A stretch of 32,761 nt of DNA from a virus. Lineage: Duplodnaviria; Caudoviricetes. The DNA lies in IMG/VR virus record IMGVR_UViG_3300026187_000055, positions 1 through 32,761 of that record; one strand, 5' to 3'. Position numbers and translations under genes: made by a program. Each line of letters opens with the position of its first letter. Positions within the stretch are counted from its first letter, which is position 1. Shown here one piece after another: positions 1,191 through 31,918 of this stretch. A model generated the notes under the pieces. The model did no database searches. It was not told where the DNA came from and was given only the letters and a program-made list of their open reading frames with translations.

Positions 1191-1611
1191 CTGGATATTC
1201 TCCATGTTGAATCATGTGTGCTACGTCTAAGGCTCTCTGACCCACCTGAGAGGCCCATAGAGAGTCTAAAAACTCTACTGAAGCCTCTGGGTAGTCTTTT
1301 GTTTCCATCAGTTTAAGAGCCAGTCTGAAGCCTCTGAGACGGGGTAGACCAATATTGAAACAGATGTTAATCATTGCATCCTTCCGAACTCTATCTAAAT
1401 CTTCATAGAAACGAAAGGCATTGGTTAATTCTTCATCAGTTCTTTGGATGTCGTTGTTTAATAGGGTGTAGATTTCCCCATCAGAAAGTCCTAATCCACC
1501 ATCCTCGTCAATATTCCTACCGACTCCTATAGTCCACTTACCAGCGGGGCATTTATAGGCGAAGCGTTTAACCCCTTCGTGCTTAGCTAGTTGGTCGGCT
1601 AATCTATTCAA
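1177..1611 (-). CDS. Endolysin, T4-lysozyme-like (GH24)
   Basis: E12-x8-C21-x5-T27 catalytic arrangement (HEGVKRFAYKCPAGKWTIGVG) and the C-terminal DSLWASQVGQRA motif. Confidence 0.9.
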   Translation of the reverse strand: MNRLADQLAKHEGVKRFAYKCPAGKWTIGVGRNIDEDGGLGLSDGEIYTLLNNDIQRTDEELTNAFRFYEDLDRVRKDAMINICFNIGLPRLRGFRLALKLMETKDYPEASVEFLDSLWASQVGQRALDVAHMIQHGEYPDEGR

Positions 1612-2026
1612 TTACTTCACCCTCAATGTCCTGAACCCCAGTATCTATGCGGTCTATAGAGGATACGTTGATTTGAATGACTGGCTTTTCATTCCCTTTT
1701 GTTTTATCATAATGACTTAAAGGGGCCATTCTATCCATTATTAACTTCCAAGCTGCGGCCTGATTCTTATGCTCAGGGTCTTCAGCAGCTTTAACAATGG
1801 CATCTATAACGTGTTCTATTCTATTAGCGGATAGGAGGCGTTCCTCAAGCTTCTTAATGGCAGTCCTCATACCTTTAGGTCTACCCTTAGCCTTCTTACC
1901 CTCATCTTCCCACTGTTGGCGAGTCATCAACCTATCAGGTTTACGAGGCCTACCCCTTCCCCTCTTCTTAGGTTCTTCCTCTACAGAACAGTCAGTAATA
2001 CCACTTGGTGCATTTAAATCATTCAT
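1604..2026 (-). CDS. terS: Probable terminase small subunit
   Basis: First gene of the packaging transcript. KKRGRGRPRK/GRPKG basic motifs, helical core (HKNQAAAWKLIMDR), beta-rich C-terminus. Start re-set to ATG 2026. Confidence 0.7.
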   Translation of the reverse strand: MNDLNAPSGITDCSVEEEPKKRGRGRPRKPDRLMTRQQWEDEGKKAKGRPKGMRTAIKKLEERLLSANRIEHVIDAIVKAAEDPEHKNQAAAWKLIMDRMAPLSHYDKTKGNEKPVIQINVSSIDRIDTGVQDIEGEVIE

Positions 2027-2068: not shown

Positions 2069-2081
2069 TAACTTATTGATA
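2069..2081 (-). promoter_or_regulatory. IHF binding site
   Basis: TATCAATAAGTTA is a perfect match to WATCAANNNNTTR, in an AT-rich context. Confidence 0.55.
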
Positions 2082-2175
2082 TAAAAACTATTTCGTTGGT
2101 TTTTTGAAATCGCTCTTTTGCAAGATTGGGTGGGTACTATAATAATTACGACACGCCAGCTCCCCTCCCCCCTAC

Positions 2176-2273
2176 TTATCCACAACCCCCTGACTTATCC
2201 ACAGCTTATCCACAGGCTCCAGGCTGACTTATCCACAGACTTATCCACAGTGTTGATAACTTATTGGGGATAA
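2176..2273. promoter_or_regulatory. DnaA-box array
   Basis: Perfect TTATCCACA at 2176, 2195, 2206, 2229 and 2241 (all +). Inverted one-mismatch boxes at 2251-2259 (TTATCAACA) and 2265-2273 (TTATCCCCA). Confidence 0.9.
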
Positions 2274-2278
2274 CTTAC

Positions 2279-2316
2279 TACTGGATGGATATACAGTACT
2301 GGATGGATTAACAGTG
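2279..2316. promoter_or_regulatory. Two tandem LexA (SOS) boxes
   Basis: taCTGgatggatataCAGta (core 2281-2296) and taCTGgatggattaaCAGtg (core 2299-2314). Both fit CTG-N10-CAG with the expected flanks. Confidence 0.8.
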
Positions 2317-2397
2317 TGGGGGTTTGTATGGCAACCAATACCCCAGTCAGCACCCAATAAATCTACTTTCATCTATAGGCAATTCCCACCAATAAAC

Positions 2398-2417
2398 TAC
2401 TGTATAAAAGAACAGTA
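2398..2417. promoter_or_regulatory. LexA (SOS) box upstream of the early promoter
   Basis: TACTGTATAAAAGAACAGTA, close to the consensus TACTGTATATATATACAGTA. Confidence 0.85.
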
Positions 2418-2436
2418 AAAATAATCAAAATAATTG

Positions 2437-2465
2437 TTGACCATAGCTATCATATACAATAGTAT
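2437..2465 (+). promoter_or_regulatory. Strong early sigma70 promoter
   Basis: TTGACC-17 bp-TAGTAT, preceded by an A/T tract (UP-element-like, 2417-2436). Confidence 0.75.
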
Positions 2466-5224: not shown

Positions 5225-5824
5225 ATGCACTACTACAAGCGCAATATTGGCGACTACTCCATAAAAGCTGGCAAGCTGACAATGCTTCAGCACGGCGCGT
5301 ACACGCTAATTATGGACTGTTGTTACGATAGGGAACAATTCCCCACCAGAGAGCAAGCTATTGAATGGACTTGGGCAGTCTCAGATGAAGAGGTTGCAGC
5401 AGTAGAATTTGTGCTGTCTCGGTTCTTTACCCTAGAAGGTGAGCATTATGTGCAAAAGCGCATAGCTGAAGAGCTGGGTGCATACCATGACAGGGCAGCA
5501 ATCAATAAGAAGAATAGAGCAAAAGGTAGCAGGACTGGTGACGAATCGTCAACGAATGGTGACAAACGGTCACCTAACCATAAACCACTAACTAATAACC
5601 ATAAACAAATAACTAAGTTTATTAGACCAAAGCCTAGTGAAGTTGAGGACTATGCAAAGCAAATAGGGTTCTCACTTGATGGTGATTATTTCTGCGACTA
5701 CTACGAAGCGAGAGGCTGGAAGCTAAGCACTGGCCCAATGAAGGATTGGAAGGCAGCGGTTAGGACTTGGAAGCGAAACAGAAAAGAAGATAAAGAATTC
5801 AAACCCAGGGAGATAATAATATGA
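5225..5824 (+). CDS. Replication initiator, YdaU/DUF1376-type
   Basis: MHYYKRNIGDY...LTMLQHGAYTLIMDCCYDRE N-terminus and FCDYYEARGW...MKDWKAAVRTW C-terminus. Followed by a helicase. ATG 5225 follows GGAG. Confidence 0.85.
   Translation: MHYYKRNIGDYSIKAGKLTMLQHGAYTLIMDCCYDREQFPTREQAIEWTWAVSDEEVAAVEFVLSRFFTLEGEHYVQKRIAEELGAYHDRAAINKKNRAKGSRTGDESSTNGDKRSPNHKPLTNNHKQITKFIRPKPSEVEDYAKQIGFSLDGDYFCDYYEARGWKLSTGPMKDWKAAVRTWKRNRKEDKEFKPREIII
5537..5616. repeat. Iteron-like repeats inside the initiator gene (probable phage origin)
   Basis: Two GGTGAC-N5-GTCA(A/C)C palindromes 21 bp apart (5537, 5558), then two 21-bp A/C-rich direct repeats TAACCATAAACnAnTAACTAA (5575, 5596). Confidence 0.6.
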
Positions 5825-31687: not shown

Positions 31688-31918
31688 CTATTGTTCGGCT
31701 GCCTTACGTTCTAATGCCATCTTCTGCTCTCTGGAACGAACCCACTTATCTGTTGCACCTGGAAAATGTCCAGAAGCGGGGTCGAGACTACACCTGACAG
31801 CAGGGATGACTCGCGTTGCTACCTCATCACATTGAGGACAATCAATCTGTTTAGTTTCACGTGAAACAAGTTTTTCATTTACATGAGCATACTTGCATAC
31901 AAAATCAAACAGAATCAT
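31688..31918 (-). CDS. FmdB-like zinc-ribbon protein
   Basis: FDFVC..AH...IDCPQC....RVI. Confidence 0.75.
   Translation of the reverse strand: MILFDFVCKYAHVNEKLVSRETKQIDCPQCDEVATRVIPAVRCSLDPASGHFPGATDKWVRSREQKMALERKAAEQ

What the first reader, a model, noticed from the sequence alone, without database searches (positions are those of the whole stretch)
2069..2465. Host-protein landing strip: 7 DnaA boxes, 3 LexA boxes and an IHF site in 400 bp at the late/early junction
Seen: five perfect co-oriented TTATCCACA boxes (start-to-start spacing 19, 11, 23, 12 bp), two inverted one-mismatch boxes, two abutting SOS boxes, a third SOS box and an IHF consensus, all in one non-coding stretch between divergent promoters. 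Known: these are the consensus sites of E. coli-type DnaA, LexA and IHF, and the phage T5 injection-stop region has been reported to carry DnaA boxes. The phage also has its own initiator with internal iterons (5537-5616), so a second conventional origin is not obviously needed. Inferred options: (a) a cis-acting DNA decoy that titrates DnaA (datA-like, stalling host initiation) and LexA (derepressing SOS/recombination) before any phage protein is made; (b) a ratchet in which abundant host proteins bind the first-entering end and help pull the genome in, since there is no phage RNA polymerase; (c) an oriC-mimic for a plasmid-like carrier state. This is the best candidate for an undescribed system in the window.
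Basis: partly seen in the sequence, partly recalled or inferred. Interest (0 to 1): 0.9.

Follow-up and report, generated by a model that had tools for sequence, protein, structure and literature searches.

The report
Phage genome ends borrow host proteins
The boxes fill a 197-base stretch whose two edges are where the DNA of close relatives stops, so it is most likely the repeat at both ends of this phage genome; relatives fill the same slot with sites for different host proteins (DnaA, LexA, sigma-54 and others), which suggests the phage coats its DNA ends with borrowed host proteins, likely to shield them as the genome enters the cell.

Summary

In close relatives, 7 of 38 contigs cut short on the terminase side start at one base (window 2136), and 4 of 6 cut short on the early side stop at the base matching 2332. 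A long-read contig and adapter-like loose ends agree. So 2136-2332 is most likely a T7-style 197-bp terminal repeat holding the 7 DnaA and 2 LexA boxes. The IHF site and third LexA box lie outside it, at opposite genome ends.

Across the family both borders are conserved, while the filler (65-317 bp) is swapped. Of 79 distinct fillers, 18 carry DnaA arrays, 17 LexA boxes, 26 sigma-54 sites and 17 none of the motifs scored. Strains with identical terminase-side or initiator proteins differ in filler, which argues against an origin or a DnaA-specific decoy.

Best reading (about 0.4): a passive coat of host proteins that shields the ends before any phage gene is expressed. An entry ratchet is second. 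Binding and function are untested. The scan earlier noted DnaA and sigma-54 arrays at other phage ends; mapped ends plus interchangeability in one slot were not in those notes.

The parts
1604..2026 (-). First gene of the late operon, likely small terminase subunit (140 aa, N-terminal AT-hook-like motif)
   Evidence: Position upstream of lysozyme and large terminase. No PHROG or Pfam family; Atlas neighbours are viral hypothetical proteins; fold model poor, pLDDT 54. The name is inferred from position only.
2069..2081 (-). IHF consensus, outside the terminal repeat on the terminase side; predicted to lie about 55 bp inside the right-end repeat boundary; likely packaging or late-control element
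   Evidence: IHF consensus on this side in 42 of 79 loci and 0 in the filler, whatever the filler type
2117..2149 (+). Anchor A: conserved border motif; the left genome end falls inside it, between 2135 and 2136
   Evidence: 93 distinct loci; 7 of 38 truncated contigs start at the base matching 2136; long-read contig end; adapter-like loose end joined at 2135/2136
2136..2332 (+). Predicted 197-bp direct terminal repeat
   Evidence: repeats of 140-209 bp in 26 distinct close relatives
2162..2172 (+). Conserved C-run, starting 27 nt from the left end
   Evidence: First CCCC lies 24-29 nt from the record start in T7, SP6, K1-5, Berlin, phiEap-1, Kp7 and phiKMV
2176..2273 (.). Seven DnaA boxes (five perfect on plus, two one-mismatch on minus): swappable filler
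   Evidence: perfect boxes are identical to a box in E. coli oriC; spacing mostly 11-12 or 17-24 bp across the family
2279..2316 (.). Two abutting LexA (SOS) boxes: swappable filler, ending 16 bp before the right end
2315..2338 (+). Anchor B: conserved border motif; the right genome end falls inside it, after 2332
   Evidence: Best-scoring B site found in all 79 full-length loci by a matrix trained on them; 4 of 6 truncated contigs end at the matching base; Logan contigs of X7 and X9 end there
2398..2417 (.). Third LexA box, outside the repeat, 20 bp before the early -35; further landing site or SOS operator of the early promoter
   Evidence: a LexA box lies in the 200 bp after B in 19 of 79 loci
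2437..2465 (+). Sigma-70-type promoter-like site of the early operon, about 300 bp inside the left end
   Evidence: consensus match only

Best explanation
The boxes fill a stretch whose edges are fixed DNA ends in close relatives, most likely a 197-bp terminal repeat, and its swappable filler of host-protein sites likely gives both genome ends a passive coat of host proteins that would shield them from end-loading nucleases and end sensors before any phage gene is expressed. Shown: the boxes, the two conserved borders, the fixed ends in relatives, and the exchange of DnaA, LexA, sigma-54 and other sites within one slot. Inferred by analogy with T7 (recalled): terminase cuts first at B, packages toward the late genes and cuts last at A, so the early end (repeat, then promoter at about +300) enters the cell first. 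Inferred: host proteins occupy the sites within seconds, and any tight, abundant, sequence-specific binder will do, so bulk and residence time matter and not the regulatory activity of the protein. Untested: binding, and which nuclease or sensor is hindered.
For: Left end: 7 of 38 upstream-truncated contigs (80 loci with flanks, of 87 found) start at the same base; all 7 sequences differ; P about 3e-9 under even spread. A long-read contig holding a 32.4-kb relative ends 2 letters outside that base. An adapter-like loose end is joined at that place in runs X6 and X7, one sample (identity as a Nanopore adapter is recalled). Right end: 4 of 6 downstream-truncated contigs, and Logan contigs of X7 and X9. 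Filler of 79 distinct loci: DnaA 105, LexA 36 and sigma-54 143 sites in 12.5 kb, against 2, 0, 0 in 15.7 kb on the terminase side, 9, 21, 6 in 15.7 kb on the early side, and 3.2, 0.6, 0 in shuffles. Interchangeable: L070 (9 sigma-54 sites, no DnaA) and L071 (3 DnaA boxes, no sigma-54) have identical TerS-like proteins; the DnaA state changes at least 5 times on well-supported branches (quick tree, 74 of 79 rows). DnaA boxes point either way and sigma-54 sites alternate strands with no gene to drive. Further classes by recalled consensus: SlmA and Fur (L166), FadR-like (L150), Fis-like (3 loci), parS (2 loci); PdhR-like repeats in L034 and L036 resemble the E. coli pdhR operator. Cultured T7-group phages show the same optional filling: 8 boxes in the 292-bp exact terminal repeat of ZK1, and 5, 7 and 9 boxes near record starts of phiEap-1, Kp7 and A7, against 0 in T7, SP6, K1-5, Berlin and phiKMV. 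DNA ends of injected genomes are targets of RecBCD, Shedu, Gabija and probably Lamassu (passages of PMC12904381 and PMC10286901).
Against: RecBCD pushes through tandem arrays of tight binders in vitro (abstract of bioRxiv 10.1101/142224), so a simple physical block of RecBCD is doubtful. The first 40 bp and last 16 bp carry no box and may suffice for loading an end binder. 17 of 79 fillers had none of the seven motif classes scored, though some hold other repeats, and T7 itself has no DnaA box. Extra sites spill only onto the early side, which fits an entry ratchet equally well. The end pile-up was not reproduced in IMG/VR contigs: 1 of 15 downstream-truncated loci ended at the B cut, and none of 11 truncated loci began at A. 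So ends are mapped for the close clade only. No single molecule with both repeats was seen. Many of the 79 loci are near-copies. The host is unknown.
Confidence: 0.42

Rival explanations
1. Entry ratchet or anchor: host proteins bind the copy that enters first, stop it sliding back, and hold it until host RNA polymerase engages the early promoter and pulls in the rest.
For: No phage RNA polymerase found. The repeat is followed by a promoter-like site pointing inward at about +300. Overflow sites lie only on the early side. A passive ratchet also tolerates any binder. Davison proposed a DnaA membrane anchor for T5, in silico only (bioRxiv 10.1101/866236).
Against: A coat of about 200 bp is small against a genome of about 35 kb, and capsid pressure should deliver far more than that unaided (own knowledge). 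Non-specific nucleoid proteins would ratchet without special sites. A membrane anchor is specific to DnaA and does not explain LexA-, sigma-54- or PdhR-type fillers.
Confidence: 0.22
2. End handling during replication or packaging: host proteins bridge the two repeat copies for circularisation or concatemer formation by the phage Erf/YqaJ system, or slow the terminase or the repeat-duplicating fork between cuts B and A.
For: The filler is confined between the two cut sites. Erf and YqaJ genes are present. An IHF consensus is conserved just outside A.
Against: Bridging needs self-associating proteins, and the binders differ in that respect (own knowledge). Cut positions stay fixed relative to A and B whatever the filler length (65-317 bp) or type. 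Sites also occur beyond B.
Confidence: 0.15
3. Decoy: the amplified repeats titrate DnaA, LexA or sigma-54 and so stall host initiation or rewire SOS or sigma-54 responses.
For: Near-consensus, multi-copy sites; an IHF consensus about 95 bp from the first DnaA box loosely recalls datA (datA layout recalled).
Against: An incoming genome carries only 14 DnaA and 5 LexA boxes. Strains with identical core proteins target different regulons or none. A decoy need not sit within 200 bp of the physical ends. The IHF site is kept when DnaA boxes are absent.
Confidence: 0.12
4. oriC mimic for DnaA-dependent replication or a plasmid-like state.
For: Perfect boxes, partly at helical spacing; AT-rich DNA on the terminase side (31% GC); a conserved parS-like site elsewhere in the genome.
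Against: DnaA boxes are absent from strains with a 100% identical initiator. The phage has its own DUF1376 initiator with internal repeats and a DnaB-like helicase. No GATC in the window against 11 in E. coli oriC. The repeat is 46% GC. No Par or integrase gene found in the window.
Confidence: 0.04
5. Neutral filler: slippage repeats in a spacer under no sequence constraint.
For: The filler is hypervariable in length and content.
Against: It converges repeatedly on near-perfect sites of at least three unrelated host proteins, 30-fold or more above shuffles, and on DnaA boxes again in unrelated T7-group repeats.
Confidence: 0.03

Closest known systems
Short direct terminal repeats of Autographiviridae (T7, SP6, K1-5, phiKMV; DnaA-filled in ZK1, Kp7, phiEap-1, A7)
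   Same: Similar size, C-run 24-29 nt inside the left end, fixed borders with variable filler, early promoter inside the left end; some members fill the repeat with 5-9 DnaA boxes.
   Different: This family has no RNA polymerase gene and uses a lambdoid-type initiator, helicase and Erf/YqaJ; no cultured phage matched its TerS-like protein. The filler here switches among several host proteins.
T5 injection-stop region (Davison, bioRxiv 10.1101/866236; parts 1-2 of 6 and passages read)
   Same: Non-coding DnaA-box cluster in a terminal repeat; proposed link to DNA entry.
   Different: T5 has 8 conserved boxes kilobases from the end of a 10-kb repeat, with A1/A2-dependent two-step entry. Here the boxes start 41 bp from the end of a 197-bp repeat and are optional and replaceable. 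The paper has no occurrence of LexA or sigma.
Phage end-capping proteins T4 gp2 and Mu Gam (passages of PMC10286901, PMC12315714, PMC12904381)
   Same: The proposed job: keeping nucleases off linear genome ends.
   Different: Those are phage-encoded, sequence-independent end binders. Here the cap would be host proteins recruited by cis sites, with no gene needed.
E. coli oriC and datA
   Same: Identical perfect DnaA 9-mer; IHF consensus nearby.
   Different: No GATC, no conserved box pattern, dispensable in sister strains, located at a linear genome end.

Membership tests
Short exact direct terminal repeat (T7-type ends) | Fixed left terminus | tested here: met
   7 of 38 truncated contigs, long-read contig end, adapter-like loose end; close clade only
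Short exact direct terminal repeat (T7-type ends) | Fixed right terminus 100-400 bp further on | tested here: met
   4 of 6 truncated contigs and Logan contigs of X7, X9; only 1 of 15 in IMG/VR
Short exact direct terminal repeat (T7-type ends) | Same repeat at both ends of one molecule | tested here: inconclusive
   No molecule with both ends; the long-read contig lacks the terminase-side end. Summed contig depth rises about two- to fourfold at 2134 in X6, X7, X9 (one sample), suggestive only
Short exact direct terminal repeat (T7-type ends) | C-run about 25-29 nt inside the left end | tested here: met
   27 here; 24-29 in seven cultured phages
Autographiviridae | Phage-encoded single-subunit RNA polymerase | tested here: not met
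   None among 55 ORFs scanned; the part missing from the window is terminase and portal in relative L001
oriC-type DnaA origin | High-affinity DnaA boxes | tested here: met
oriC-type DnaA origin | Conserved, required box arrangement | tested here: not met
   DnaA arrays in 18 of 79 fillers; absent in strains with identical initiator
oriC-type DnaA origin | Autonomous DnaA-dependent replication | not testable with these tools
   Needs a minichromosome assay
T5 injection-stop signal | Conserved 8-box pattern inside a roughly 10-kb repeat carrying pre-early genes | tested here: not met
   197-bp gene-free repeat with variable boxes; T5 layout
datA-type DnaA sink | IHF-dependent DnaA titration or inactivation | not testable with these tools
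   IHF consensus is independent of DnaA boxes in relatives; activity needs biochemistry
LexA (SOS) operator, E. coli type | CTG-N10-CAG close to natural operators | tested here: met
   2, 4 and 4 mismatches of 20 to the sulA operator; binding not tested
Sigma-54 -24/-12 site (relatives' filler) | TGGCAY-N5-TTGC spacing as in a natural promoter | tested here: met
   Same -24 element and GC spacing as the site upstream of E. coli glnA; 143 sites against 0 in shuffles; binding not tested

The most novel reading that the evidence does not exclude
Short terminal repeats of many unrelated phages are a gene-free counter-defence module: a plug-in slot of operators that recruits whichever abundant host regulator binds tightly (DnaA, LexA, sigma-54 holoenzyme, ParB, SlmA, Fur, GntR-family proteins) to armour or disguise the linear DNA ends from the first seconds of infection, with strains swapping fillers in an arms race with end-sensing immunity.
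Probability: 0.4. Interest if true: 0.9.

Novelty: new variant of a known kind. Interest (0 to 1): 0.78.

Why it matters
Terminal repeats are usually treated as packaging and recombination signals whose inner sequence does not matter. Here the inner sequence converges again and again on host-protein sites, and different proteins replace each other in the same slot among strains with identical core proteins. That turns scattered single observations (DnaA boxes in T5, DnaA-filled T7-group repeats, sigma-54 arrays near phage ends) into one testable rule: occupancy matters, identity does not. It bears on how a naked linear genome survives or enters before it can express anything, and it can be tested cheaply in E. 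coli K-12 with linear DNA or a T7-group coliphage. The family is large (about 2200 stored stretches in IMG/VR, an estimate) and has no cultured member in the collection searched.

Tried and rejected
No cultured relative of the TerS-like protein among 50,697 phage records; capsid, portal, tail and large terminase gave only distant hits. A sigma-54 filler found no similar array in cultured phages by blastn. No stable hairpin in the repeat (z = -0.31) and no Rfam match, so a structured RNA or cruciform was rejected. The AlphaFold model of the TerS-like protein was too poor for a fold search (pLDDT 54). Only assembled contigs, no raw reads, were served; the tool's own table of molecule starts was empty. 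IMG/VR contigs did not show the left-end pile-up. The MAG contig that holds a relative (L449) joins bacterial-looking DNA about 30 nt inside the TerS-like gene; it is read as a long-read chimera and not used as evidence of host or prophage. Matrix scan of anchor A against B gave weak scores, so A and B are not claimed to be one repeated motif. CRP, FNR, MatP, NtrC and NrdR consensus sites were not found in the fillers. DnaA triplets in other viruses: of 80 sampled, 22 lie beside this family's gene, 10 of the other 58 have a terminase as one of the two neighbours scanned, and some lie beside helicases or initiators; that is at most a modest enrichment outside the family. Literature: ten searches found only Davison's T5 preprint for DnaA boxes in a phage terminal repeat; most subscription papers are not covered, and the preprint's supplements were not seen.

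Full report
Observation. Only 0.36 perfect DnaA boxes are expected in the whole window. The perfect box is identical to one in E. coli oriC, and the first SOS box differs from the sulA operator at 2 of 20 positions. The IHF match alone is weak (5 in the window).

Setting. The window is a nearly complete podovirus-like genome. A late operon runs leftward from a 140-aa gene (likely small terminase, named from position only) through lysozyme and large terminase. An early operon runs rightward with a DUF1376 initiator, DnaB-like helicase, Erf and YqaJ. No RNA polymerase, integrase or partition gene was found among 55 ORFs. No cultured phage matched the TerS-like protein. IMG/VR holds about 2200 stretches with a relative (estimate).

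Anatomy across the family. Upstream of the TerS-like gene, relatives from about 35 to 100% identity keep a motif (anchor A) followed at a fixed distance by a C-run; 93 distinct such loci were collected. In the 79 with enough sequence, a second conserved motif (anchor B) follows 65-317 bp later (the matrix was trained on these loci). Between them lies a hypervariable filler. It holds 105 DnaA, 36 LexA and 143 sigma-54 sites in 12.5 kb. The 200 bp on the terminase side hold 2, 0 and 0, the 200 bp on the early side 9, 21 and 6, and shuffled fillers 3.2, 0.6 and 0. By locus: DnaA arrays in 18, LexA in 17 and sigma-54 in 26 of 79; 52 carry at least one of DnaA, LexA, sigma-54 or parS, 10 carry only unassigned palindromes, and 17 carry none of the seven classes scored. 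Some of the last group hold SlmA-, Fur-, FadR- or PdhR-like sites (consensus sequences recalled except PdhR, compared with the E. coli operator). Many of these loci are near-copies, so the counts are not independent events.

The filler is swapped among near-identical strains. L052 has an initiator 100% identical to the window's over 181 aa but three LexA boxes and no DnaA box. L070 (9 sigma-54 sites) and L071 (3 DnaA boxes) have identical TerS-like proteins. On a quick tree of 74 of the 79 proteins the DnaA state changes 10 times, at least 5 on well-supported branches. In an independent set from metagenomes, 26 distinct close-clade repeats carried DnaA arrays in 16, LexA in 13 and neither in 4.

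The slot is a terminal repeat. A pattern lying just inside A found 87 metagenome loci, 80 with flanks. Of the 38 that are cut short on the terminase side, 7 start at exactly the base matching window 2136; all seven differ in sequence, and the chance of such a pile-up is about 3e-9. Of the 6 cut short on the early side, 4 stop inside B at the base matching 2332. A long-read contig that carries a 32.4-kb relative ends two letters outside the same left base. Logan contigs of runs X6 and X7 carry a foreign, adapter-like stretch joined at 2135/2136, and contigs of X7 and X9 end at the right base (X6, X7 and X9 are one sample; that the stretch is a Nanopore adapter is recalled). Against this: IMG/VR contigs showed 1 of 15 ending at the B cut and none starting at A, and no molecule with both ends was seen. 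The ends are therefore mapped for the close clade and extended to the sigma-54 clades only by the shared anchors. The predicted repeat is 2136-2332, 197 bp. Its C-run starts 27 nt from the end, as it does at 24-29 nt in seven cultured Autographiviridae. In the linear genome, the IHF site would lie near the right end and the third LexA box near the left end.

Parallel in cultured phages. Klebsiella phage ZK1 has 8 DnaA boxes in a 292-bp exact terminal repeat; phiEap-1, Kp7 and A7 have 5, 7 and 9 within 700 bp of the record start, and vB_SEqdws-315 has 4; T7, SP6, K1-5, Berlin and phiKMV have none. These were picked by similarity to DnaA arrays or by name, so they show occurrence, not frequency. 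In IMG/VR, DnaA triplets (about 1400 stretches) lay beside this family's gene in 22 of 80 sampled loci, and sigma-54 triplets (about 330) in 33 of the 80 loci with long flanks.

Mechanism. Interchangeable binders, free orientation and dense packing from 41 bp inside the left end to 16 bp before the right end point to a passive role. An origin is excluded as a requirement, and a regulator-specific decoy is unlikely. I favour a shield (0.42): the repeat puts the coat on both ends, it works before any gene is expressed, and injected DNA ends are targets of RecBCD, Shedu, Gabija and probably Lamassu (passages of PMC12904381 and PMC10286901). The main weakness is that RecBCD clears arrays of tight binders in vitro (abstract of bioRxiv 10.1101/142224) and that the terminal 40 bp are free. 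An entry ratchet (0.22) fits the spill of extra sites onto the early side just as well. A role in circularisation or packaging (0.15) and a decoy (0.12) follow. Which end enters first is inferred from T7 (recalled). No binding or function was tested.

Prior knowledge. Ten literature searches found one paper on DnaA boxes in a phage terminal repeat, Davison's in-silico T5 preprint (parts 1-2 of 6 and passages read; supplements not seen). PMC11512268 and PMC12315714 were seen as passages and did not describe this. Earlier notes of this scan report DnaA arrays in T7-like repeats and sigma-54 arrays at phage ends; I read them after reaching the terminal-repeat reading, and they are not independent support. 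What this locus adds is base-level end mapping and the direct exchange of one host protein for another in a single slot.

Verdict. Real feature; a known kind of genome end with an undescribed, swappable load of host-protein sites. New variant of a known kind, interest 0.78.

Noticed in passing
window 1-32761: No GATC at all in 32.8 kb (about 122 expected); the close clade has 11 in 144 kb against 841 in 333 kb for more distant relatives. Suggests a host that cuts or reads GATC.
   Followed up: partly
window 31855-31866: parS-like palindrome inside the small zinc-ribbon ORF 31688-31918; a parS-type site occurs in 3 of 4 relatives searched, in G001 at the matching place with different letters that keep the palindrome. 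May load host ParB although the phage has no partition genes.
   Followed up: partly
L449 / G001:C1:358110-390534: A 32.4-kb relative sits at the end of a 390-kb MAG contig, joined to bacterial-looking DNA inside the TerS-like gene; probably a long-read chimera, not a prophage.
   Followed up: partly
L245 and L251 (one 36.6-kb contig): The two ends of one contig carry different fillers, one with two DnaA boxes and one without, showing coexisting strains that differ in this slot.
   Followed up: no
L008, L014, L083, L088, L098, L104, L115 fillers: Recurrent palindromes with no assigned binder: an 18-bp TetR-operator-like site (14 of 79 loci) and two TGGC-centred families (7 loci each).
   Followed up: partly
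L353, L380, L387, L390, L327, L344: Unrelated phages with other terminases also carry DnaA arrays next to a terminase gene, several beside a G/C-run.
   Followed up: partly
hits H1-H3, H150-H151, H293-H298: Small microvirus genomes carry DnaA-box-like arrays in or beside the replication initiator gene.
   Followed up: no
L352 (same contig as L351): One contig has a second DnaA array about 2.6 kb from the one beside the TerS-like gene.
   Followed up: no
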